Below, piece by piece: positions 3,543 through 52,511 of a stretch of 64,000 nt of DNA. The translations under genes and the position numbers were made by a program. A model generated the notes under the pieces. The model did not search any database, was not told the DNA's origin, and saw nothing but the letters and a program-made list of their open reading frames with translations. How positions within the stretch are numbered: position 1 is the first letter of the stretch; each line of letters starts with the position of its first letter. Source of the stretch: Candidatus Foliamicus sp. (GTDB lineage Bacteria; Pseudomonadota; Gammaproteobacteria; Steroidobacterales; Foliamicaceae); assembly GCA_965238055.1 (NCBI GenBank), contig OZ250178.1, positions 3,304,874-3,368,873 on the forward strand. The letters are read 5' to 3'.

Positions 3543-3633
3543 TGGCGGAGAGGGTGGGATTCGAACCCACGATACGGGAATACCGTATACCTGATCTCCA
3601 ATCAGGCGCCTTCGTCCACTCGGCCACCTCTCC
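3543..3633 (-). tRNA. tRNA-Ser (anticodon GGA)
   Basis: The reverse complement reads GGAGAGGTGGCCGAGTGGACGAAGGCGCCTGATTGGAGATCAGGTATACGGTATTCCCGTATCGTGGGTTCGAATCCCACCCTCTCCGCCA (91 nt). It has a 7-bp acceptor stem, anticodon loop TTGGAGA, a long variable arm, a GGTTCGAATCC T-loop and an encoded CCA. Confidence 0.92.
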
Positions 3634-5956: not shown

Positions 5957-7485
5957 ACAAGACTCCGCACTCAGCAGCAAAACGCGCCGCCTGTACGGCG
6001 TTGTTGGTGCTGTTCAGTGCGCAGACCTTGCCCGCTGCCGCCCAGTCCCAGGCCGGACAGGACCTTCCCGACATGGGCAGCCTCGCTGACTCGATCCTGA
6101 CGCGCGAAGAAGAAAGGGAGCTCGCTCTCGGCGTAATCGAGCAGATTCGCCGCGCCGGCATGATCGTCACGGATCCCGAGATCAATGAATACGTGGCCGA
6201 CGTAGGCCGCCGGCTGGCCTTTCTGGCACAGAGCGGGGAGCATAGTTTCCACTTCTTCGTGGTCAAGGACCCGTCCATCAACGCGTTTGCCTTGCCGGGG
6301 GGCTATATCGGCGTTCACACCGGGCTTATCGTGGCCACCGCCAACGAGAGCGAACTGGCCGGGGTACTGGCGCATGAAGTCGCTCACGTGACACAGCAGC
6401 ATATTTCCCGGCAGTTCCAGGCCATGCGTGGCACCGGGATCATGTCCATGGCGATGCTGGTGGGCGCCTTGTTGGTGGGAAGCTTGCTCGGCGGTGGTAG
6501 CGACGTAATGCAGGGTGCGCTGATGGCCAGCTCGGGCATGGCCATGCAACAGCGGATCAACTTCACCCGGGCGCACGAATATGAAGCCGACCGTATAGGA
6601 ATCGGCACGCTCTACGCTGCGGATTTTGACCCGCGCGGGTTGCCTTCGTTCTTCGAGACCATGTCACGCAAGGAACCCCTTTCAGCCGCTGCGATTCCTG
6701 AAATCCTTCGAACGCATCCGGTCAGCGTCAACCGCATCGCCGAGGCCCGTGGCCGAATTGGACCCCACATGATGCGCGACGTCGACAGCAGCCTCAGTTA
6801 CTACCTGGCGCGCGCGCAAGCACGATTGCTCGGCAGCAGCAGTCCGGAAGAAGCCCTGCGACGGTTCCGTTCCGAGCCCCTGCAGGAGACATTGGCGGAC
6901 GTCGGCAGGTTTTACGGCGAAGGCCTTGCCCTGATGGCAGCCGGCCGCCCGGATGAGGCACTGGCGAGCTTTCGAACTCTCCTGGCGGAGTACCCGAATT
7001 CCATACCCATTCGTATCGCCGTTGCGCGCGCCCAAGCGGCCGCCGGCAACGCTACGGATGCCCGCCAGGCCTTCGATGAGTCGCTGGCGCTGTTTCCCGG
7101 CAATATCAGCCTCGCCCATCGGTATGCGGAGGTTCTGCTGTCCGAAGGCCAGGCTCCTCAGGCCCGCGAACTTCTGATAAAGTTCCTGATCGGCGACAAG
7201 CTCGACCTGGAGACAACACGATTGCTTGCCCAGGCCAGCGGCGAATCCGGCCAGGTTGCCGATGCGCATTATTTCATGGCGGAATACGCACTCATGCGCC
7301 GCAACCTGAACGAAGCCCACACCCAGTTACAGCTCGCGCTGCAGGCCGCGGAACATGCCGATGACGTGCGCCGCAGCCGCATCGAGGCCCGCCTGGAACA
7401 GGTGGAAATGATGGCGGAGAAAGGCAGCCGGCGCGAAAGGAAAGATGAGGAATCCGATGAGGAGTCTTCGGATCGGCGGGGATAG
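5953..7485 (+). CDS. bepA: M48 metalloprotease with TPR C-terminus (BepA/YfgC-like)
   Basis: A GTG at 5953 overlaps the bcp stop and gives the signal-peptide N-terminus 'VNKTPHSAAKRAACTALLVLFSAQTLPAAAQ'. It has the HEXXH motif 'LAHEVAHVTQQH' and a TPR-like C-terminal half. The ORF-track start at 5785 would overlap bcp. Confidence 0.8.
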   Translation: MNKTPHSAAKRAACTALLVLFSAQTLPAAAQSQAGQDLPDMGSLADSILTREEERELALGVIEQIRRAGMIVTDPEINEYVADVGRRLAFLAQSGEHSFHFFVVKDPSINAFALPGGYIGVHTGLIVATANESELAGVLAHEVAHVTQQHISRQFQAMRGTGIMSMAMLVGALLVGSLLGGGSDVMQGALMASSGMAMQQRINFTRAHEYEADRIGIGTLYAADFDPRGLPSFFETMSRKEPLSAAAIPEILRTHPVSVNRIAEARGRIGPHMMRDVDSSLSYYLARAQARLLGSSSPEEALRRFRSEPLQETLADVGRFYGEGLALMAAGRPDEALASFRTLLAEYPNSIPIRIAVARAQAAAGNATDARQAFDESLALFPGNISLAHRYAEVLLSEGQAPQARELLIKFLIGDKLDLETTRLLAQASGESGQVADAHYFMAEYALMRRNLNEAHTQLQLALQAAEHADDVRRSRIEARLEQVEMMAEKGSRRERKDEESDEESSDRRG

Positions 7486-7501
7486 AGAGGGATCCGCAGA
7501 A

Positions 7502-8812
7502 ATGGCAAATCGACTACAGGAATGGTGGACCTTAAAGCCCGAGGAGGAGCAGCAAAGCGCGGACAATCCGCTCACGCCGCTCAGCGACAGCCAGCGGCGC
7601 AACACCCTTCCGTTATTGACGCTGGCCTTCGGCTGGGGCTTTTTGGTCACCGGGCTTTTAACAGGCGGCGCACTGGGCAAGGGCATGACCTTCTGGCCCG
7701 ACGCTGTCCAGGCATCCTTCTATGGAAACCTGGCCAACTTCGCCATCGGGGCCGTGGTCGGCTACATGGGCTACAAGACCGCTTGTAACAGCGGCCTGCT
7801 GTATCGGTTGGTCTACGGCCGGTTCGGCGCCTATCTGCCGGTACTGTTCATAGCTCTTCTGACCATCGGCTGGCAGGGCATCGTAGTGGGCGCGTTCGGC
7901 TTTGCCTGGGCGCAGGACTTCGATTCTCCGCAGTTCTACACGATTGCGCTGCTTGCGGGCATCCTTTTCACTGTCACCACTTACTTCGGCGTCAAAGCGC
8001 TCGAATGGGTCAGCGTTCCCTCGGTTGTCGTGCTGGTGGCGGTGGGGCTTTATTCCATCGACCTCAATGTAGGACAGGCGGGAGGCTGGGACGCTTTCCT
8101 GGCGCTTTCCTTTGACAAGGCCGCCAATTCGGATACCCCGATGACTGTTCTTGGTGGCGTTAACGCCGTTATCGGTTCCTGGATCGTCGGTGCGGTGGTG
8201 ATGGCCGAATACACGCGTTTCGCCAAGCGCGCGTGGGTCGCGATCGCTATTCCATTCATCGTTCTGATCATCGCCCAGTGGTTCCTGCAGATTGTGGGCG
8301 CGATGGGAAGTGTTGTTTATGGCGGCAGTGGCGACTTCACTTCGTACCTTCTGGAACAGGCCGGCTGGATTGCTTTGCTGGGCGTAATCGGCATGAGCGT
8401 GGCGCTTTGGACCACGGGCGATGCGAATCTCTACCTCCCGGTTATCCAGACGTCCAGCATCATGCGCCGGCCGCGCCGGGTCATGACCGTGATCTGCGGG
8501 CTGCTGGGAACCATTTTGGGGCTGGGCATTTACGAGTATTTCCTGGCCTGGATCGGAACGCTGTCGATTATCGTGCCGCCGCTGATCGGACCGGTCATTG
8601 CACACTACTATTTTGTCGAGCGCGGACGAATGGATGCCGGCGACGATTCCCGGTTACCCATGGTGAACTGGGCCGCGCTACTCGCCTACCCCCTGGGACT
8701 GTTGGGCTACTTCTTCGCGCCTGAGTGGCTGGTGCCGGCACTCGCCGGCCTGGCCGGCTCGATAGTGGCCTACCTGCTCCTGTACTACGCGATACGCGCA
8801 GCGCGGCGCTAG
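7502..8812 (+). CDS. NCS1 family (cytosine/purine/allantoin-type) permease
   Basis: Polytopic membrane protein. The N-terminus 'SDSQRRNTLPLLTLAFGWGFLVTGLLTGGALG' and overall pattern are CodB/NCS1-like. Start chosen at 'MANRLQEW'. Confidence 0.75.
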   Translation: MANRLQEWWTLKPEEEQQSADNPLTPLSDSQRRNTLPLLTLAFGWGFLVTGLLTGGALGKGMTFWPDAVQASFYGNLANFAIGAVVGYMGYKTACNSGLLYRLVYGRFGAYLPVLFIALLTIGWQGIVVGAFGFAWAQDFDSPQFYTIALLAGILFTVTTYFGVKALEWVSVPSVVVLVAVGLYSIDLNVGQAGGWDAFLALSFDKAANSDTPMTVLGGVNAVIGSWIVGAVVMAEYTRFAKRAWVAIAIPFIVLIIAQWFLQIVGAMGSVVYGGSGDFTSYLLEQAGWIALLGVIGMSVALWTTGDANLYLPVIQTSSIMRRPRRVMTVICGLLGTILGLGIYEYFLAWIGTLSIIVPPLIGPVIAHYYFVERGRMDAGDDSRLPMVNWAALLAYPLGLLGYFFAPEWLVPALAGLAGSIVAYLLLYYAIRAARR

Positions 8813-8817
8813 CCCCC

Positions 8818-8872
8818 CCTGGGAGAGAGGGCGTCCCGTCCTCGTCGAGGGCGGGACGCCCTCTCTCCCAGG
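8818..8872. terminator. REP-like perfect palindrome between convergent genes (likely bidirectional terminator); member of the window's repeat family
   Basis: CCTGGGAGAGAGGGCGTCCCGTCCTCG/TCGAGGGCGGGACGCCCTCTCTCCCAGG forms a long hairpin. It lies between the permease stop and the aldolase stop. Confidence 0.7.
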
Positions 8873-9889
8873 TTACGCCGCCTCCAGCTCCGGGCGATAT
8901 TCCCCGCTCCGGGCCAATCCGTTTAACCGCGCCCGTTTCCCTAACGCCCTTTGCGCATCGCCCAGCTGATCCGCCCTGCCCCCCCAGGCCGCAAGAGCCG
9001 GCGCCTGCAGCGCCCGGCCATAGGAGAAGGAAACCTGCCAGGGATGCGGCCCCCGCGCATTCATCGCGCTTAGATGGGCAGTGGCGTCTTCGGCCGATTG
9101 ACCACCGGACAGGAAGGCGATTCCCGGAACCGCTGCCGGCACATAGGCCTTGAGCGTCCGCAGCGTCGCTTCCGCCACCTCATCCACGCCGGCCTGTGCG
9201 GGGCATTCCGTTCCCGAAACCACCATGTTGGGCTTGAGAACAATGCCTTCCAACTCAACCCGGTGACGCTCCAGCTCATCGAAGACATGTTCAAGCACCG
9301 CGCCCGTGACCTGTTCGCACCGGGAAATGGGATGTGGCCCGTCCATCAGCACCTCAGGCTCCACGATCGGGACGAGGCCCGCTTCCTGGCACAGGGCCGC
9401 GTAGCGCGCCAGCGCATGAGCGTTGGTGTGAACGCAGCAGTCGCTGGGCGCACCTTCGCCGATGGCGATGACAGCCCGCCACTTTGCGAATTGAGCCCCC
9501 AGGCCGCGATACTCGGCAAGGCGCTCGCGCAGCCCGTCCAGTCCTTCGGTGACCTTTTCCCCGGGGCAACCGGCCAGCGCCTTGGCGCCCGTGTCTACCT
9601 TGATGCCCGGAAACATGCCCCGCCCCGCCAGGTATTGCGGGATGGGCTCGCCGTCCGGCATGGATTGCCGCAGAGTCTCGTCAAAGAGAATTACGCCGCT
9701 GATGTATTGCTCCGCCGACGGTGTGGAAAACAGCATCGAGCGGTAGTCACGGCGCAAGGACTCGGTGGCTTCCACCCCGATGCCCGCAAAACGCTTGCCG
9801 ATAGTGGGAGTGCTCTCGTCGGCAGCCAGAATGCCCTTGCCGGGCGATACCATGGCTTGTGCTGTTTCGGTCAGATTGGCGTTTGTCAT
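8873..9889 (-). CDS. fba: Class I fructose-bisphosphate aldolase
   Basis: From ATG 9889: 'MTNANLTETAQAMVSPGKGILAADESTPTIGKRF...', 'KPNMV' and 'FLSGGQS' are hallmarks of class I FBA. The upstream 146 codons of the ORF-track entry are treated as spurious extension. Confidence 0.9.
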   Translation of the reverse strand: MTNANLTETAQAMVSPGKGILAADESTPTIGKRFAGIGVEATESLRRDYRSMLFSTPSAEQYISGVILFDETLRQSMPDGEPIPQYLAGRGMFPGIKVDTGAKALAGCPGEKVTEGLDGLRERLAEYRGLGAQFAKWRAVIAIGEGAPSDCCVHTNAHALARYAALCQEAGLVPIVEPEVLMDGPHPISRCEQVTGAVLEHVFDELERHRVELEGIVLKPNMVVSGTECPAQAGVDEVAEATLRTLKAYVPAAVPGIAFLSGGQSAEDATAHLSAMNARGPHPWQVSFSYGRALQAPALAAWGGRADQLGDAQRALGKRARLNGLARSGEYRPELEAA

Positions 9890-10033
9890 CTGCTGATTTC
9901 CCCTGTTGCGGTCGTCTTTGGCGTGTAGTGTATTCCTACCTTTGCATGGCCGCCACCGCAAAGGCTTCTGGGCGATAATCTGTGCTGCCCAACGCCATCC
10001 GCACCGGGTTGATTTATTGAGCGGAGTAGTCCC

Positions 10034-11272
10034 ATGACCATTACGACATTCGAAAACTGCCGCATCTTCGACGGCCATGGCCCTGAATACATCGAAGACC
10101 ATCGAGTGGTGATTGCGGATGGCCGGATACAGGGGTTGGAGCCCATGAGCAGCAAAGGCCCCAAGGCTGCGGAAGTCGTCAATTGCGGAGGACGGGTCCT
10201 GATGCCGGGGCTGATCGATTGCCATTTTCACGCCTACGGGGTGAGCTTCAGCTTCTACGAACTCGACCGCATGCCGCGCGAGTTGCTGGCGCAGCACGGT
10301 GCAAAAACCATGCGCGACACGCTGCATCGCGGCTTCACCACCATTCGTGACGCGGCCGGCGCCGACATCGGGCTATGGCTGGCGCTGGAACAGGGATTGA
10401 TCGAAGGGCCGCGCCTGTTCTATCCGGGCCGCGCGCTTTCCCAAACCGGCGGCCATGGCGACATGCGCCCCGGAGACCAGATCGAAGCAACCGCCTGCGC
10501 CTGCGGCTACATGGGCAGCCTCACCGTCACTGCAGACGGTCCGGACGAAGTGCGCAAAGCGGTGCGAGAGGAACTGCGCAAGGGAGCGCACCAGATCAAG
10601 ATCTTCATTTCCGGCGGCGTGGTTTCGCCAACCGATCCGCTGTGGATGCCGCAATACTCCGACGAGGAGGTGCTCGCGGCTGTCGAAGAGGCCGCTTCGC
10701 GCCGCACCTACGTGATGGCGCACTGCCACACCGATGACGGCGCCCGCCGCTGCGTCGATCTCGGTGTGCGAACCATCGAGCACGGCTCGGAGATTCTCGA
10801 CGACACGGCCGCCGCCATCGTCGAGAAAAATGCCTATGTAGTTCCCACCCTTTCCGTGATGCACGTCATCCGCGATTTTTCCGATGATCTTGGCTTGCCT
10901 TCAACCAGTTACGGCAAGATTCTGCGAGTGCACGAGACCATGCTGACCGCCATGGAGACCTGTACGCGCCACGGCGTAAAGCTCGGATTGGGTTCCGACC
11001 TCCTGGGCCACGAATACATGAAGCTTCAGGGCGCGGAACTGGAATACCGCGGCGAAGTCCATTCGCCACTGGAAGTCCTGCGCTCAGCCACCTCCATCAA
11101 TGCCGAGATCCTTCGGGAGCAAGGCAACCTCGGTTGCATCGCCCCGGAAGCGCACGCCGATTTGCTGGTACTGGATGATGACCCGATGAAGAACCTTGGC
11201 CTGTTCCGAGATGTGAACAACATTCCAATCATCATGAAAGCCGGCGAATTTGTCCGCCGCACTTCTATCTAG
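10034..11272 (+). CDS. Amidohydrolase-superfamily metal-dependent hydrolase
   Basis: 412 aa. 'GGRVLMPGLIDCHFHAYG' is the HxH metal motif, with 'KIFISGG' and 'AHCH' following. The TAG stop lies inside the IS target duplication. Confidence 0.8.
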   Translation: MTITTFENCRIFDGHGPEYIEDHRVVIADGRIQGLEPMSSKGPKAAEVVNCGGRVLMPGLIDCHFHAYGVSFSFYELDRMPRELLAQHGAKTMRDTLHRGFTTIRDAAGADIGLWLALEQGLIEGPRLFYPGRALSQTGGHGDMRPGDQIEATACACGYMGSLTVTADGPDEVRKAVREELRKGAHQIKIFISGGVVSPTDPLWMPQYSDEEVLAAVEEAASRRTYVMAHCHTDDGARRCVDLGVRTIEHGSEILDDTAAAIVEKNAYVVPTLSVMHVIRDFSDDLGLPSTSYGKILRVHETMLTAMETCTRHGVKLGLGSDLLGHEYMKLQGAELEYRGEVHSPLEVLRSATSINAEILREQGNLGCIAPEAHADLLVLDDDPMKNLGLFRDVNNIPIIMKAGEFVRRTSI

Positions 11273-19744: not shown

Positions 19745-20601
19745 CCGCCAGGAATTCGGAAATCATCGTTGCCGCCGGCGAGCGGCGCTCGGAGGTGATC
19801 CGTATCGCCCATCGGGCGGGAGACCGGTACACGCATGCCCTGCATGTGCAGCTCGGGGCCGGCAGTTCGCTGAAGCTTCAGGAACTTCATGAGGGCAGCG
19901 GCGCCTGCGAGGTGCGCTTGCAGGTAGACCTGGACCTGGCGGCCGGCGCCTCCATGCGCCATATCACCGTGGTGGACGACGGCGGAAACGGTCGATTCCA
20001 GATGGATCGAAATGCACGCCTTGCAGATCAGGCGGAGCTGAAATACACGCGTGTCGGATCGGGCGCCGCAAGCGACTGCGAAGTCCTGCGGATCCGAATG
20101 GAAGGTGCGCGGTCCCGCTTCCGGCATGGCGCCCTGATGATGGCGGAATCGGGCCAGCACGCCGAATTGGACCTGGAAATCGCCCACCATGCCCGGCACG
20201 CGGAAAGCGACAGTCTCTGCCGCTGTGTTTTGGGGCCTGAAGGCAACGGCCGGTTTACAGGAAAGATCCTGATCTCCCCGGAAGGGCAAGGCGCCGACGC
20301 CCGATTGCGGAACGACAACCTCCTCCTGGACGAGTCCGCGCACATGGAAACACGTCCGGAACTCGAGGTATACGCAGACGAGGTGCAATGCGCTCACGGC
20401 GCCGCCACCGGCGCGCTGGACGAAGCCGCCTTGTTCTACCTGAGGACCCGCGGCATGTCGCCTGAGCAGGCCCGCGCGATGCTGGTCCGGGCGTTCGCGT
20501 CTCGAATCAGCGGCGCCATCCAGCCGGCGGAAGCGGCGGAAATGGCCGGCGCCATGCTTAACCGCGCCCTCAAGGACGACGTGGCAAAGCTGGCTGCGTG
20601 A
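19741..20601 (+). CDS. sufD: Fe-S cluster assembly protein SufD (short form)
   Basis: 286 aa. It lies between sufC and sufS and has the C-terminal SufB/D block 'ELEVYADEVQCAHGAATGALDEAALFYLRTRGM'. It is shorter than enteric SufD. Confidence 0.8.
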   Translation: MTARNSEIIVAAGERRSEVIRIAHRAGDRYTHALHVQLGAGSSLKLQELHEGSGACEVRLQVDLDLAAGASMRHITVVDDGGNGRFQMDRNARLADQAELKYTRVGSGAASDCEVLRIRMEGARSRFRHGALMMAESGQHAELDLEIAHHARHAESDSLCRCVLGPEGNGRFTGKILISPEGQGADARLRNDNLLLDESAHMETRPELEVYADEVQCAHGAATGALDEAALFYLRTRGMSPEQARAMLVRAFASRISGAIQPAEAAEMAGAMLNRALKDDVAKLAA

Positions 20602-21866
20602 CCGGCATGAGCAGCGTCACCGCCCGCCTGGCCACGGCCCCGGTCCGGGAGCAGCTCCCGGCCGACAGTCTGCGCGCTGATTTTCCCAGCCTGGCTACCC
20701 GCGTACACGGCAAGCGACTGGCCTACCTTGACAACGCCGCCTCCACCCAGCGGCCGCAGCGGGTGATGGACGCCATTAACGAATACGAAACCGAGATGCA
20801 CGCCAACGTGCACCGCGGCGTGCATGCGCGTTCCGACAAGGCCACTGCGGCTTTTGAGGGTGCGCGCGAGCGAACCCGGGCCTGGCTCAATGCCGGCTCA
20901 GGCAAGGAAATCGTCTTTACCCGCGGCGCCACAGAGTCCATCAACCTGGTGGCGCGCTGCCTGGACGATCAAATGGATTCGGACTCCGTGATCCTGCTGA
21001 CCGAGATGGAGCACCACTCCAATATCGTGCCGTGGCAGCAACTTTGCCAGCGCACCGGCGCGCAAATCCAGATCGCCCCAGTGCTGGACACCGGTGAGCT
21101 TGATCTTGCCGCCTTCCGCGGGCTGATCAGCCGCAAACTCAAGCTGATTGCGGTGACCCATGTTTCCAATGCAATGGGCGTCATCAACCCGGTGGCGGAA
21201 ATTTGTCGCATGGCACGCAATTCGGGTGTCCCCATTCTGATTGACGGCGCCCAGGCCGCGGGACACATTCCGTTGGACATGCGGGAGATCGACTGCGACT
21301 TCTACGCCCTGTCCGGACACAAGATGTACGCACCCACCGGGATCGGAGCGCTTTACGCGCGTGAACCCTGGCTTGATGAGCTGCCCCCGTTTCTCGGAGG
21401 CGGCGAAATGATCCTCGAAGTACGTTTCGATGCCACGACCTACAACGATCCACCACACAAGTTCGAGGCCGGCACGCCCAATATCTCCGGCGCCATCGGC
21501 CTCGGGGCTGCCATGGATTACCTTTCCGCACATGGCCTGGCCCGCCTGGCGGCGCTGGAGCACGAACTGCTGGAATACGCCACGGAGCGCCTGCAAGGTA
21601 TTGAAGGCCTGCGGATCATCGGCACGGCATCGCCGAAATCGGCGGTTGTGTCTTTCGTCATTGAGGACATCCACCCGCACGACCTCGGGACGATACTGGA
21701 TCACGAAGGTGTGGCCATACGAGCGGGACACCATTGCGCCATGCCACTCATGGAACGCTTCGGCCTTCCGGGCACCGCGCGTGCGTCCTTTGCCTTCTAC
21801 AACACCCATGACGAGATCGATCGCCTTGCCGACGGGATCGAAACCGCCCGCAAGCTTTTTGCCTGA
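20598..21866 (+). CDS. sufS: Cysteine desulfurase SufS
   Basis: 422 aa with 'YLDNAASTQRP', 'SGHKMYAPTGIGALY' (PLP Lys) and 'RAGHHCAMPL' (active-site Cys loop). Confidence 0.93.
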   Translation: MTGMSSVTARLATAPVREQLPADSLRADFPSLATRVHGKRLAYLDNAASTQRPQRVMDAINEYETEMHANVHRGVHARSDKATAAFEGARERTRAWLNAGSGKEIVFTRGATESINLVARCLDDQMDSDSVILLTEMEHHSNIVPWQQLCQRTGAQIQIAPVLDTGELDLAAFRGLISRKLKLIAVTHVSNAMGVINPVAEICRMARNSGVPILIDGAQAAGHIPLDMREIDCDFYALSGHKMYAPTGIGALYAREPWLDELPPFLGGGEMILEVRFDATTYNDPPHKFEAGTPNISGAIGLGAAMDYLSAHGLARLAALEHELLEYATERLQGIEGLRIIGTASPKSAVVSFVIEDIHPHDLGTILDHEGVAIRAGHHCAMPLMERFGLPGTARASFAFYNTHDEIDRLADGIETARKLFA

Positions 21867-21870
21867 CGCA

Positions 21871-22395
21871 ATGAACGCAGACCTGCAAAGCCTCTACCAG
21901 CGCACCGTGCTCGAGCACTGCCGTTCACCGCGGAATTTCCACGCGATTGAAGAAGCGGACCGTGTGGCAAAGGGCTTCAATCCCCTGTGCGGCGACAAAG
22001 TAACGATTTACCTCCGCGAATCCCCTGGGAACGAGGGCGTCCTCGCCCTCGCCGCGGGCGTCCCGCCCTCACCTGGGAACGAGGGCGTCCCGCCCTCGCC
22101 TCCGGCCATCACCGAAATAACCTTTGAAGCCGCAGGCTGCGCCATCTGTCTGGCCTCGGCATCCATGATGACGGAATTACTCGGTGGCGAAACGTCCGAG
22201 ACTGCCCGCCGACGCGCCGAACAGGTGCTCGCCGCATTCGAACCCGGCGTCGAGAACGGGTTGAGCGACCTGGGCGACATCGTGGCCCTGGGCAGCGTAC
22301 GCGCCTACCCGTCCCGAATTCGCTGCGTCACATTGCCGTGGCGGACATTCACCGCGGCGCTGGAAGGCGACTCCGGCACCGTGAGCACCGAGTAG
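21871..22395 (+). CDS. sufU: SUF-type NifU/IscU-like scaffold (SufU) carrying an in-frame REP-derived insertion
   Basis: From ATG 21871: 'MNADLQSLYQRTVLEHCRSPRNF...NPLCGDKVTIYL' and 'ITFEAAGCAICLASASMM' are SufU hallmarks. Between them lies 'RESPGNEGVLALAAGVPPSPGNEGVPPSPP', which is encoded by repeat DNA. Confidence 0.8.
   Translation: MNADLQSLYQRTVLEHCRSPRNFHAIEEADRVAKGFNPLCGDKVTIYLRESPGNEGVLALAAGVPPSPGNEGVPPSPPAITEITFEAAGCAICLASASMMTELLGGETSETARRRAEQVLAAFEPGVENGLSDLGDIVALGSVRAYPSRIRCVTLPWRTFTAALEGDSGTVSTE
22024..22098. repeat. Two REP-family copies inside the sufU coding sequence
   Basis: CCTGGGAACGAGGGCGTCCTCGCCCTCG (22024-22051) and CCTGGGAACGAGGGCGTCCCGCCCTCG (22072-22098) share the core found at 8818, 22958, 26486 and 52437. 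Confidence 0.8.
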
Positions 22396-22400
22396 ATAGC

Positions 22401-22952
22401 ATGTTTGGAAACCAGAGCGAACCGGTAACGCTGACCCGCGACTGCAAGGCGGTGATCATCCCCGCCGGCGAGGGAGCACAGTTGAGGGCGGGACAGCTGG
22501 TGTTCATTACCCAATCCCTGGGAGGCAGCTTTACGGTCTACGTGGACGGCTGGCTTTATCGCATTGCCGGGGCGGACGCCGACGCCCTTGGCAAGAAGCC
22601 CGTAGAACCTCCGAAACTTCCGGCTGACGCGGCCGATTCGGACGTGGAGGCGGTGGTCTGGGAGCAGATGAAGACCTGCTTCGACCCGGAAATCCCGCTC
22701 AATATCGTGGACCTGGGCCTGGTGTATTTCTGCGAGGTTACGGCAAGGAACGATGGCGAACGCGACGTTGCCGTGGAAATGACGCTGACCGCGCCGGGCT
22801 GCGGCATGGGCGAAATCCTCGTAGAGGACGTTCGAGAGAAGATCGGGATAATTCCAACGATCAACGAGGTGGCGGTGGAGTTGGTATTCGATCCTCCCTG
22901 GAACCAGAGCATGATGTCCGAAGCCGCGCAACTCGAAGCAGGGCTCCTGTAA
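22401..22952 (+). CDS. sufT: SufT-like Fe-S assembly protein (DUF59/MIP18 C-terminal domain)
   Basis: From ATG 22401, 183 aa. 'VWEQMKTCFDPEIPLNIVDLGLVY' and 'MTLTAPGCGMG' are the DUF59 signature. Confidence 0.8.
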   Translation: MFGNQSEPVTLTRDCKAVIIPAGEGAQLRAGQLVFITQSLGGSFTVYVDGWLYRIAGADADALGKKPVEPPKLPADAADSDVEAVVWEQMKTCFDPEIPLNIVDLGLVYFCEVTARNDGERDVAVEMTLTAPGCGMGEILVEDVREKIGIIPTINEVAVELVFDPPWNQSMMSEAAQLEAGLL

Positions 22953-22957
22953 CCCCC

Positions 22958-23025
22958 CGGGAACGAGGGCGTCCCCGCCCTCGACAAAGTGAGCCCCCGG
23001 GAACCAGGGCGTCCCCGCCCTCGAC
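22958..23025. repeat. Two direct REP-family half-copies downstream of sufT
   Basis: CCGGGAACGAGGGCGTCCCCGCCCTCGAC (22958-) and CCGGGAACCAGGGCGTCCCCGCCCTCGAC (22998-). Confidence 0.75.
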
Positions 23026-26482: not shown

Positions 26483-26485
26483 CTG

Positions 26486-26538
26486 CTGGGAACGAGGGCG
26501 TCCCGCCCTCGACGAAGGCGAGACGCCCTCGTTCCCGG
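26486..26538. terminator. REP-family palindrome between convergent icmF and the hydrolase gene
   Basis: CTGGGAACGAGGGCGTC-(loop)-GACGCCCTCGTTCCCGG forms a hairpin. Confidence 0.7.
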
Positions 26539-26544
26539 AAGTTC

Positions 26545-52436: not shown

Positions 52437-52511
52437 CCCTGGGAACGAGGTCGTCCCCTGGGAGCGAGGTCGTCCCGACCTCGTCGAGGGCGGGACGCCC
52501 TCGTTCCCAGG
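52437..52511. repeat. REP-family cluster (three units, palindromic)
   Basis: CCTGGGAACGAGGTCGTCC / CCTGGGAGCGAGGTCGTCCCGACCTCG / TCGAGGGCGGGACGCCCTCGTTCCCAGG. Confidence 0.75.

What the first reader, a model, noticed from the sequence alone, without database searches (positions are those of the whole stretch)
22021..22100. REP-family repeat pair inserted in frame inside the Fe-S scaffold gene sufU
The DNA between the conserved SufU blocks 'CGDKVTIYL' and 'ITFEAAGCAICLASASMM' consists of two copies of the intergenic repeat core CCTGGGAACGAGGGCGTCC(C/T)GCCCTCG. It is translated as 'SPGNEGVLALAAGVPPSPGNEGVPPSPP', and the reading frame is preserved through to the normal C-terminus. REP-like elements are normally extragenic. 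An in-frame insertion into a loop of a housekeeping scaffold protein is unusual. It raises the question of whether the protein tolerates the insert, or whether this sufU is decaying while SufBCD/SufT carry the function.
Basis: partly seen in the sequence, partly recalled or inferred. Interest (0 to 1): 0.55.

Follow-up and report, generated by a model that had tools for sequence, protein, structure and literature searches.

The report
Palindromic repeat translated inside sufU
A short selfish palindromic DNA repeat (REP type) sits in frame in a surface loop of the iron-sulfur protein SufU; it has stayed there, growing, shrinking and decaying, in a whole group of uncultured gammaproteobacteria, and the gene still looks functional, so this is a clear new example of a known phenomenon.

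Summary
Window 22021-22104 (28 codons of sufU, 21871-22395) consists of two same-strand arms of a repeat, CCTGGGAAC-GAGGGCG-TCC-CGCCCTC-G, plus one headless hairpin. The same repeat forms intergenic inverted doublets at 8818, 26485 and 52457 and a direct pair at 22956.

The insert lies at the tip of a beta-hairpin (strands 42-51 and 79-88, pLDDT <50), away from the conserved Cys40/Asp42/Cys90/Cys152. Solved SufU structures and orthologues at <=45% identity have a 4-6 residue turn there.

About 115 orthologues of Candidatus Foliamicus-like bacteria (59-86% identity) are 147-232 aa long, and all the length variation lies at this site. It comprises full inverted doublets, single arms, in-frame tandem arrays (21-, 24- and 48-nt periods; 29 nt outside genes), decayed remnants and clean deletions. 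Near-identical strains differ by 24 codons.

Amino acids covary as the DNA hairpin dictates (V-P, I-L, F-Q). Stem codons are identical where synonymous sites elsewhere have diverged.

The same arms occur in frame in alaS, valS, a ygfZ-like gene and a methylase gene of metagenome contigs, some demonstrably of this clade. They flank a RAYT transposase on two metagenome contigs.

SufU is not decaying. Intragenic REPs are already published, so this is a new member of a known kind.

The parts
21871..22395 (+). sufU coding sequence (174 aa), host of the insert
   Evidence: TIGR01994 SufU 104.2 bits, cut-off 92.5. Matches PDB SufU/IscU chains. The AF2 model matches the SufU/IscU fold with TM 0.82 normalised to 2qq4.
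22021..22104 (+). Repeat-derived in-frame insert, codons S51-P78 (SPGNEGVLALAAGVPPSPGNEGVPPSPP)
   Evidence: Absent from solved homologues and from outgroup orthologues. Modelled as coil between strands 42-51 and 79-88, with pLDDT <50 at residues 55-72.
22024..22051 (+). REP arm 1: head CCTGGGAAC, stem GAGGGCG, 4-nt loop TCCT, stem CGCCCTC, then G
   Evidence: nhmmer E=1.5e-5. Perfect 7-bp stem.
22054..22070 (+). Headless hairpin GCGGGCG-TCC-CGCCCTC (one stem mismatch)
22072..22098 (+). REP arm 2, an exact match to the family consensus CCTGGGAACGAGGGCGTCCCGCCCTCG
   Evidence: 0 mismatches. nhmmer E=8.7e-8.
8818..8872 (.). Intergenic inverted REP doublet between convergent ORFs (7445-8812 + and 8873-10327 -)
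   Evidence: Folds at -61.1 kcal/mol, z=-9.2.
22956..23023 (+). Intergenic direct pair of REP arms (4-nt loops), starting 4 nt after the sufT stop codon
   Evidence: REPs occupy the same intergenic position in relatives L002, L003, L004, L006 and L087.
26485..26539 (.). Intergenic inverted REP doublet, starting 3 nt after the stop of the 1097-aa fused B12 mutase gene
   Evidence: Folds at -48.1 kcal/mol, z=-8.1. The orthologous site holds 4 arms in L002 and 9 in L003.
52438..52511 (.). Intergenic partial arm plus inverted REP doublet; one arm has the compensated stem GAGGTCG/CGACCTC
20598..21866 (+). sufS (context: cysteine desulfurase, partner of SufU)
   Evidence: TIGR01979 552.8 bits.
22401..22952 (+). 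sufT (context)
   Evidence: TIGR03406 254.7 bits.

Best explanation
A REP/REPIN-type palindromic element inserted into the codons for the beta2-beta3 hairpin turn of SufU in an ancestor of the Candidatus Foliamicus-like gammaproteobacteria. Its canonical form is two 27-nt arms in inverted orientation. Each arm has a 9-nt head plus a 7-bp/3-nt stem-loop.

The insertion survived for three reasons. All six frames of the element are free of stop codons. The frame in use encodes a flexible Pro/Gly/Ser/Glu-rich peptide. The site is the tip of a hairpin at the far end of the sheet from the Cys/Asp ligand site. (The first two are shown; the third is inferred from the model.)

Since then the intragenic copy has behaved like the extragenic copies. 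Each inner stem-loop is itself a palindrome, so inverted arms also act as direct repeats. Slippage or recombination between them duplicates or deletes arms. Inside the gene only changes in multiples of 3 nt survive. The results are 21-, 24- and 48-nt tandem units, single-arm forms, decayed remnants and clean losses. (The pattern is shown; slippage as its cause is inferred.)

The window's version is one such derivative: two direct arms plus a headless hairpin, with no inverted partner.

The hairpin sequence is kept at the nucleic-acid level, so the loop's amino acids covary as base pairs. The cause is either homogenisation with the genome's REP pool or selection on the stem-loop. SufU itself remains a working sulfur-transfer protein that carries a disordered, hypervariable passenger loop. 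(Function is inferred from conservation, not shown.)
For: Repeat family and insert.

Extra segment relative to solved SufU.

Host gene intact:
- Above the SufU cut-off; ligands and 51 columns invariant.
- SufU fold with a low-confidence coil at residues 52-78, between strands that start right after Cys40 and end right before Cys90.

Clade-wide occupancy of the same site:
- 120 homologues are 113-232 aa long, and all length variation lies here.
- L004 and L086 hold complete inverted doublets in frame. L004 reads CCTGGGAAAGAGGGCTTCCAGCCCTCG-TC-GAGGGCGGGGACGCCCTCGTTCCCAG.
- L089 holds only the right arm. L005 and L007 hold remnants.
- Outgroups at <=45% identity have none.

Rapid turnover:
- L002 and L003 show 1 mismatch in 840 nt downstream of the insert but differ by 72 nt inside it, and by 5 arms in an intergenic array.
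- P0080 (151 aa) is 97% identical in the core to P0056 (165 aa). P0095 (147 aa, no insert) is 89.6% identical to forms with the insert.

Frame filter: tandem periods are 24 nt x7 and 21 nt x4.8 inside the gene, against 29 nt x7.9 outside genes.

Nucleic-acid-level conservation:
- The stem variants G:C, A:T and T:A appear as V-P (26), I-L (39) and F-Q (1), against 2 I-P. In the right arm D..S/G..P account for 48 (including 3 W-K arms) against 10 mismatched.
- The stem codons GAG, GGC and CCC are identical in six lineages. Only 26 of 88 core columns keep one codon (E 0/4, P 0/5, G 2/8). The Ser third base just outside the stem varies.
- The insert evolves faster than the core overall (74% versus 91% identity), with the changes concentrated at linker positions.

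Generality: arms in the same reading frame occur in alaS, valS, a ygfZ-like gene and a DUF1156 methylase gene of metagenome contigs carrying the same arm.

REP nature: a RAYT gene is flanked by arms of this family on L111 and L097.

Precedent: intragenic REP dimers and clusters encoding 20-82 aa are documented (PMC3733652; PMC10969869).
Against: No expression, protein or activity data exist. Function is inferred only from conservation.

The conservation of stem bases at synonymous sites, and a perfect doublet in L086 with no other REP in 20 kb, go beyond what a purely neutral passenger predicts. They leave room for a nucleic-acid-level function.

A single ancestral insertion is the parsimonious reading, because the junctions are shared. 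It is not proven: the NJ tree of a 145-aa core is weakly resolved, and re-insertion or gene conversion at the same site cannot be excluded.

No RAYT was found in the window or in the flanks of close relatives. The two RAYT-bearing contigs cannot be assigned to this clade.

The covariation counts are not corrected for phylogeny.

One relative (L087) has a 1-nt deletion in a repeat that splits sufU. It is either a sequencing error or a real inactivation.
Confidence: 0.8

Rival explanations
1. The intragenic stem-loops are kept by selection because they act as a nucleic-acid element inside the suf operon. Candidate roles are an mRNA stabiliser or processing site between sufBCDS-U and sufT, a translational pause site, or a binding site for gyrase or a RAYT-like protein. 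On this view the peptide is a by-product.
For: Compensatory stem changes appear at the orthologous intragenic arm in different lineages.

Stem codons are invariant at synonymous positions, while the first base outside the stem varies.

Stem-coded residues are conserved and linker residues are variable in the 21-aa forms.

L086 and L089 keep intragenic arms although no other arm lies within 20 kb.

Intergenic copies sit just after stop codons, as for REPs thought to act in RNA (PMC3733652).
Against: Many lineages have let the element decay (L005, L007, L008, L009), lose one arm (L089) or vanish (L085, P0080), while sufU stays conserved.

The window's own copy lacks the inverted partner and folds only modestly better than shuffles (z=-2.6, against -6 to -9 for intergenic doublets).

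Gene conversion from the genome's REP pool would give the same covariation without any function.
Confidence: 0.12
2. The site is a hot spot that the repeat has invaded repeatedly and independently, rather than one ancestral insertion that then evolved in place.
For: Different lineages carry different stem variants, and these resemble the variants among their own intergenic copies. The window has G:C both in the gene and outside it. L004 has T:A in the gene and nearby.

Insert-free forms (P0095) and nearly insert-free forms (P0080) exist within the clade.
Against: The left junction (after R49 plus one residue) and the right junction (before [AV]I[AT]E) are the same in all forms. Remnants occur in every sub-branch down to 59% identity.

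The insert-free P0095 is nested among insert-bearing sequences by core identity, which fits loss.
Confidence: 0.12
3. The variable loop is adaptive at the protein level, for example a flexible spacer or interaction surface whose length is tuned between strains.
For: Strain-level length polymorphism in steps of whole codons.

The same peptide frame is used in five unrelated genes although all six frames are open.
Against: The residues change as base pairs, not as conservative amino-acid replacements. V-P to I-L to F-Q and G-T to W-K are chemically radical.

The loop is predicted to be disordered.

Lengths from 3 to 88 residues are all compatible with a conserved core.

The shared frame is explained as well by a filter against the Arg/Trp-rich alternative frames.
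Confidence: 0.05
4. sufU is a decaying gene or pseudogene, or the insert is an assembly artefact.
For: One relative (L087) has a frameshift inside the repeat. Repeats are error-prone in long-read assemblies.
Against: The frame is intact, the protein scores above the curated SufU cut-off, and the ligands are invariant.

The same protein is recovered from two assemblies.

More than 100 independent assemblies from several sources carry inserts at the same site.

Core identity is 74-97% across the clade.
Confidence: 0.02

Closest known systems
Intragenic REPs (GTAG- and CGTC-tagged palindromic repeats; Di Nocera et al. 2013, PMC3733652)
   Same: Both are short stem-loop repeats. They are mostly extragenic, lie just downstream of ORFs, and are often paired head-to-head.

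In both, a minority lie entirely within ORFs of known proteins as single units, dimers (20-30 aa) or clusters (43-82 aa), without inactivating the gene.
   Different: Neither a GTAG nor a clear unpaired CGTC tag could be assigned to these arms. Stems here are 7 bp with 3-nt loops, preceded by a 9-nt head that pairs between arms.

The host gene (sufU) and the lineage are new.

This case also documents order-level persistence at one codon position, strain-level length polymorphism, and codon-compatible tandem periods.
Rickettsia palindromic elements (RPE; Ogata et al. 2000, as summarised in PMC10969869)
   Same: A selfish palindromic repeat is inserted in frame into unrelated housekeeping genes and yields a translated extra peptide compatible with function. 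From my own recollection of the original work, RPE-1 copies also share one reading frame and sit on protein surfaces.
   Different: RPEs are about 100-150 bp and belong to a reduced intracellular alphaproteobacterium. These units are 27-nt arms (a doublet of about 56 nt) in apparently free-living gammaproteobacteria with 3-4 Mb genomes. No sequence relationship was tested. I do not know of intragenic tandem amplification being reported for RPEs.
REPIN-RAYT systems (Bertels & Rainey 2011, PMC3116915; listed)
   Same: The replicative unit is an inverted doublet of REPs. The repeats form within-genome populations with stem variants. A Y1 (IS200-like) RAYT gene is flanked by the repeats, seen here on L111 and L097.
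   Different: REPINs are described as extragenic. RAYT linkage in the window's own genome is untested. Long direct tandem arrays (29-nt period) are prominent here.

Membership tests
SufU (Fe-S cluster sulfur-transfer protein, TIGR01994) - host gene | Scores above the curated equivalog cut-off | tested here: met
   104.2 bits against a cut-off of 92.5, in two stretches interrupted by the insert.
SufU (Fe-S cluster sulfur-transfer protein, TIGR01994) - host gene | Conserved Cys/Asp/Cys/Cys ligand set, and the IscU/SufU fold | tested here: met
   C40, D42, C90 and C152 are invariant in 41 orthologues and align to the ligand motifs of B. subtilis SufU. The AF2 model matches 2qq4 (TM 0.82 normalised to the target) and 6jzv/5xt5.
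SufU (Fe-S cluster sulfur-transfer protein, TIGR01994) - host gene | Encoded next to sufS within a suf operon | tested here: met
   The order Rrf2-sufB-sufC-sufD-sufS-sufU-sufT is seen in the window and in relatives.
REP / REPIN (repetitive extragenic palindromes) | Short (20-40 nt) imperfect palindrome forming a stem-loop, with stem variants that keep pairing | tested here: met
   The stem is 7 bp with a 3-nt loop. Variants are GAGGGCG/CGCCCTC, GAGGGCA/TGCCCTC, GAGGGCT/AGCCCTC, GAGGACG/CGTCCTC and GAGGTCG/CGACCTC.
REP / REPIN (repetitive extragenic palindromes) | Multi-copy and predominantly extragenic, close to the 3' ends of ORFs | tested here: met
   Four intergenic sites in 64 kb, 3-6 nt after stop codons where this was checked. 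REP-rich relatives have up to about 18 arms outside sufU per 20 kb.
REP / REPIN (repetitive extragenic palindromes) | Inverted doublets able to fold into a long hairpin | tested here: met
   Doublets at 8818-8872, 26485-26539 and 52457-52511 fold at -48 to -61 kcal/mol, z=-6.4 to -9.2.
REP / REPIN (repetitive extragenic palindromes) | A RAYT (Y1 transposase) gene flanked by the same repeats in the same genome | tested here: inconclusive
   A PF01797 ORF with an HVHVL motif is flanked by arms of this family on metagenome contigs L111 and L097. Its homologues are named RayT by their sources. None was found in the window or in about 200 kb of relatives' flanks.
REP / REPIN (repetitive extragenic palindromes) | Terminal unpaired GTAG or CGTC tag (super-family assignment of PMC3733652) | tested here: inconclusive
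   There is no GTAG at the arm ends. The string CGTC occurs only across the stem/spacer junction (CCCTCG-TC-GAGGG) in some doublets. The published consensus figures are not held, so no comparison could be made.
Rickettsia palindromic elements (RPE) | In-frame insertion into several unrelated protein-coding genes, tolerated by the host protein | tested here: met
   The genes are sufU (clade-wide), alaS, valS, a ygfZ-like gene and a DUF1156 methylase gene. All are Pfam-confirmed, with the arm read as PG.EGVPPS or EGGTPSFP.
Rickettsia palindromic elements (RPE) | Sequence and size of RPE families (about 100-150 bp) | tested here: not met
   The arms are 27 nt and a doublet is about 56 nt. The size criterion alone excludes membership. 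The case works like an RPE but is not filed as one.
MITE | Terminal inverted repeats plus a target-site duplication | tested here: inconclusive
   The outer heads CCTGGGAAC/GTTCCCAGG are inverted. No duplication could be recognised when the filled sites (L004, L086) were compared with the empty site (L085). The empty site is probably a secondary deletion.

The most novel reading that the evidence does not exclude
The intragenic REP is not a mere passenger. Its stem-loops are maintained by selection as a functional DNA/RNA element embedded in the sufU coding sequence. It could be an intra-operon processing or stability signal, or a protein-binding site. On this reading a nucleic-acid structure has dictated the amino-acid sequence of a protein loop across an order of bacteria, while array length acts as a fast-mutating tuning knob.
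Probability: 0.12. Interest if true: 0.75.

Novelty: new member of a known kind. Interest (0 to 1): 0.45.

Why it matters
This is an unusually well-documented natural experiment on what a protein loop and a selfish repeat can tolerate from each other. One codon position of an essential-pathway gene has hosted a REP element across a whole clade, and more than 100 independent snapshots of its fate are available: full doublet, tandem expansion, single arm, decay and loss.

It shows three things directly:
- Amino-acid covariation imposed by DNA base pairing.
- A frame filter on repeat periods (21, 24 and 48 nt inside the gene, 29 nt outside).
- Strain-level length polymorphism inside a housekeeping protein.

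Practical consequences:
- Such inserts split HMM matches and can be mistaken for pseudogenes or assembly errors in metagenome-assembled genomes.
- The site could serve as a fine-scale strain marker for this uncultured group.
- Intragenic copies offer a way to separate selection on REP hairpins from copying by the transposase.

Tried and rejected
1. A search of the protein database with a 54-aa concatenate of REP-encoded peptides, meant to census other decorated proteins, found 7 candidates and none scored.

2. I tried to tie a RAYT to the window's genome by matching the 'longest contig' sizes of RAYT homologues to the sizes of Foliamicus-like genomes. None of the best 120 of 6106 hits matched.

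3. tblastn of the L111 RAYT against the window and all fetched loci hit only L111 and L097.

4. Weak nhmmer hits inside sufC (L002 7554 and others) turned out to be the ABC signature motif [10 protein letters not shown], not REP arms.

5. Several metagenome arms inside long open frames were not counted as intragenic:
- L090, L104/L108, L110 (glnE), L134 and L109 trpE: the arm lies upstream of the Pfam-matched part, so the true start codon may be downstream.
- L100, L103, L118 and L124: the frames have atypical codon-position GC or no Pfam match.

6. For valS the REP-coded stretch replaces a variable loop of similar length in one solved homologue, so a net insertion is not shown there. The solved E. 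coli AlaRS fragment ends before the site.

7. Rfam has no family at the site; the only hit in the window is a tRNA.

8. TRF finds no array in the window's own insert, which has only two arms 48 nt apart.

9. No paper in the library mentions Foliamicus.

10. My first two calls on sufU used a start coordinate one base off.
Full report
**1. The observation**

The window carries a suf operon: sufS (20598-21866), sufU (21871-22395) and sufT (22401-22952). All three score above their NCBIfam cut-offs.

Between the conserved blocks CGDKVTIYLRE and AITEITFEAAGCAICLASASMM, sufU reads SPGNEGVLALAAGVPPSPGNEGVPPSPP. This is S51-P78, nt 22021-22104.

The DNA holds three repeat pieces:
- Arm 1, 22024-22051: CCTGGGAAC-GAGGGCG-TCCT-CGCCCTC-G.
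- Arm 2, 22072-22098: the same with loop TCC, an exact consensus copy.
- A headless hairpin between them, 22054-22070: GCGGGCGTCCCGCCCTC.

The 27-mer has 6 matches in the window at <=3 mismatches, against 0.00 expected. The 16-nt head has 13 matches against 1.5 expected.

The other copies are intergenic and lie 3-6 nt after stop codons:
- Inverted doublets at 8818-8872 (between convergent ORFs), 26485-26539 and 52457-52511, the last preceded by a partial arm at 52438.
- A direct pair at 22956-23023, just after sufT.

The inverted doublets fold into very stable hairpins (-48 to -61 kcal/mol, z -6.4 to -9.2). The sufU segment has no inverted partner and is only modestly structured (z -2.6).

**2. 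It is an insertion in an intact SufU**

HMMER aligns the protein to solved SufU/IscU chains (2qq4, 1xjs, 5xt5) in two pieces, query 1-48 and 79-165. About 30 query residues stand where the chains have about 6.

An AlphaFold model built on 41 orthologues has mean pLDDT 78 and pTM 0.76. It shows strands 42-51 and 79-88 with coil between them, and pLDDT below 50 at residues 55-72. It matches the SufU/IscU fold, with TM 0.82 normalised to 2qq4 and hits to 6jzv and 5xt5.

Cys40 lies just before the first strand and Cys90 just after the second. I therefore infer that the insert sits at the tip of the hairpin, the far end of the sheet from the ligand site.

C40, D42, C90 and C152 and 47 other columns are invariant across the alignment. 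The identical protein is on record from two assemblies.

**3. The site is occupied across a whole clade**

The 120 best homologues are nearly all unnamed gammaproteobacterial MAGs. One is named Candidatus Foliamicus (order Candidatus Foliamicales). They are 113-232 aa long (147-232 for the full-length ones), and all the length variation falls at this one site.

Two forms are most frequent:
- A 21-aa insert, TPG[KRS]EGVPPS.EDGTSSLPGV.
- A 10-aa insert, EDGTSSLPEL.

The DNA shows what these are:
- L086: CCAGGGAGTGAGGGCGTCCCGCCCTC-CGTT-GAGGACGGGACGTCCTCGCTCCCAGG.
- L004: CCTGGGAAAGAGGGCTTCCAGCCCTCG-TC-GAGGGCGGGGACGCCCTCGTTCCCAG.

Both are complete inverted doublets of the intergenic type, translated as PG.EG..PS + E.GT.S.PG. 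L089 keeps only the right arm.

Other lineages show:
- Tandem amplification of the left arm. L002 has 24 nt x 7.0 copies and L088 has 21 nt x 4.8. The window and L006 have 48-nt or 24-nt spacing.
- Decayed remnants: L005 SPGKEGIPH, L007 VGREGRPAS, and L008 and L009.
- Clean loss. P0095/L085 (147 aa, 'DPL') is 89.6% identical in the core to 165-aa forms. P0080 (151 aa) is 97.2% identical to the 165-aa P0056.

Orthologues outside the clade (<=45% identity; L010-L012) have a 4-6-residue turn and no arms in their flanks. Remnants occur in every branch of a rough NJ tree down to 59% identity, and the junctions are shared. One ancient insertion followed by evolution in place is therefore the most economical reading.

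**4. Turnover is fast and filtered by reading frame**

L002 and L003 have identical gene coordinates around the operon and 1 mismatch in 840 nt downstream of the insert. Their SufU proteins are 232 and 208 aa. The intergenic array after the mutase gene has 3+1 arms in L002 and 8+1 in L003. Other near-identical pairs differ by 20-55 residues.

Intergenic arrays have a 29-nt period (x7.9 in L003). All intragenic periods are multiples of three.

All six frames of the arm are free of stop codons (read directly from the sequence). Frame is therefore the only constraint an insertion has to satisfy.

Each inner stem-loop is a palindrome, so the two arms of an inverted doublet are also direct repeats of GAGGGCG...CGCCCTC. 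I infer that slippage or recombination between them produces both the direct arrays and the single-arm forms. The ygfZ-like genes of L109 (doublet) and L137 (single arm, 9 codons shorter) show the same step.

**5. The hairpin, not the peptide, is what is conserved**

The family has stem variants that keep pairing: G:C, A:T or T:A at stem position 7, and GAGGACG/CGTCCTC and GAGGTCG/CGACCTC.

In the frame used, position 7 is the first base of codon x1 (NTC) and its partner is the second base of x2 (CNG). Watson-Crick pairs therefore appear as V-P, I-L and F-Q. Among EG..P[SP] motifs in 120 homologues these occur 26, 39 and 1 times, against 2 for the mismatched I-P.

In the right arm G-T (G:C) and W-K (T:A) occur. 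The position-5 pair appears as D...S or G...P in 48 arms (including 3 W-K arms), against 10 mismatched. These counts are not corrected for phylogeny.

At the DNA level, only 26 of 88 core columns that hold the same degenerate amino acid in six lineages also keep the same codon (E 0/4, P 0/5, G 2/8). The stem codons GAG, GGC and CCC are identical in all six, while the Ser third base just outside the stem varies.

Overall the insert evolves faster than the core (74% versus 91% identity among the 21-aa forms). The changes are concentrated at linker positions.

Homogenisation with the genome's REP pool or selection on the stem-loop would each explain this, and I cannot separate them. L086 and L089 keep intragenic arms with no other arm in 20 kb, which keeps the second option alive.

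**6. It is not unique to sufU, and the family is RAYT-associated somewhere**

A scan of metagenome contigs for GGGAANGAGGGCNTCCNGCCCTC gave 49 stretches. Several lie on contig sets that also carry clade SufU proteins (MKWU01000007.1 for P0097, LXNI01000099.1 for P0109).

Arms lie in frame in these Pfam-confirmed genes:
- alaS (L126).
- valS (L132).
- A ygfZ-like GCV_T gene (L109, L137).
- A DUF1156 methylase gene (L097).

In every case the arm is read as G.EGVPPS or EGGTPSFP, the same frames as in sufU. For valS no net gain in length is shown.

On L111, a PF01797 (IS200-like Y1) ORF with an HVHVL motif is flanked by arms of this family on both sides. L097 has a 62%-identical copy. Homologues are named 'REP element-mobilizing transposase RayT' by their sources and are spread over several phyla.

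No RAYT lies in the window or in the flanks fetched from relatives. Linkage in this genome is therefore untested.

**7. Comparison with what is known**

Intragenic REPs are published. Di Nocera et al. 2013 report GTAG and CGTC REPs entirely within ORFs of known proteins. More than half are dimers or groups encoding 20-30 aa, and clusters encode 43-82 aa. The authors argue that there is no functional constraint (PMC3733652). The Rickettsia RPEs are the classic extreme (PMC10969869).

The present case works like these. By size it is not an RPE. It meets the structural and distributional criteria of a REP/REPIN family, with the RAYT and tag criteria inconclusive.

New here are the host gene, the lineage, and the depth of the record at one site. 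I rate it a new member of a known kind.

**8. Verdict**

The 'decaying sufU' alternative is rejected.

Best explanation (confidence 0.8): an ancient REP doublet insertion tolerated in a distal surface loop, which now evolves by in-frame expansion, contraction and decay, with the hairpin sequence kept at the nucleic-acid level.

Interest is 0.45. It is a very clean and instructive example, but the phenomenon is known and no function is demonstrated.

Noticed in passing
L111 3-2585 (+) (metagenome contig Ga0180429_10009129); also L097 3310-5388: A DUF1156-type DNA methylase gene is interrupted by a complete REPtron. The order is: REP arm, a 15-nt tandem repeat (GTAGCCGAACCCCCC-like, read as VAEPP repeats), REP arm, RAYT ORF (PF01797), then a REP doublet. 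One 861-codon frame stays open through all of it. L097 has the same arrangement, with an in-frame stop in the RAYT. Many RAYT homologues are named 'putative DNA methylase' by JGI, which suggests that this nesting is common.
   Followed up: partly
L087 10070-10085 (ENA ERZ21829498 contig_4): A 1-nt deletion in one repeat unit (GGAGGCATCC instead of GGAGGGCATCC) shifts the frame and splits sufU. The gene caller reports a 185-aa product (P0118) that starts in another frame of the repeat. It could be a homopolymer sequencing error or a real slippage-type inactivation.
   Followed up: partly
L002 14739-14851 versus L003 14667-14924: Two nearly identical strains differ in the intergenic REP array after the fused B12 mutase gene: 3 direct + 1 inverted arm against 8 direct + 1 inverted (29-nt period). 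This parallels their 72-nt difference inside sufU.
   Followed up: yes
L126 8291-8316, L132 5776-5800, L109 10455-10481, L137 6021-6046: REP arms of the same family lie in frame in alaS, valS and a ygfZ-like folate-binding gene of related metagenome contigs, always in the same peptide frame as in sufU. L109 has a doublet where L137 has a single arm, a 9-codon difference.
   Followed up: partly
L093, L099, L102, L107, L115, L119, L121, L125, L127, L131, L138: Eleven metagenome contigs share one conserved locus in two close variants: ...CCTGGGGTAAC(A/G)...GCGCCTGGGAACGAGGGCGTCCCGCCCTC...GCTCCCAGGAGA.ATG. The left arm is an exact match to the family. The organism and the neighbouring genes were not examined.
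   Followed up: no
L008 6001-6597 (P0113 and P0101; also P0107, P0086): In one sub-branch the same SufU loop holds a degenerate left arm (EGKAEGILLSGKAG) followed by a different Arg/Gln/Glu-rich unit (GRARQEES). That unit is duplicated in P0113 (202 aa) relative to P0101 (182 aa). No REP arms were detected in 12 kb of flank.
   Followed up: no
L100 298-669 and L092 2972-3154: Long intergenic direct arrays of the same arm (13 arms in L100) have spacings of about 31-32 nt, again not a multiple of three. They create spurious long open frames.
   Followed up: no
window 3546-3633 (-): The only Rfam gathering-level hit in the 64-kb window is a tRNA gene.
   Followed up: no
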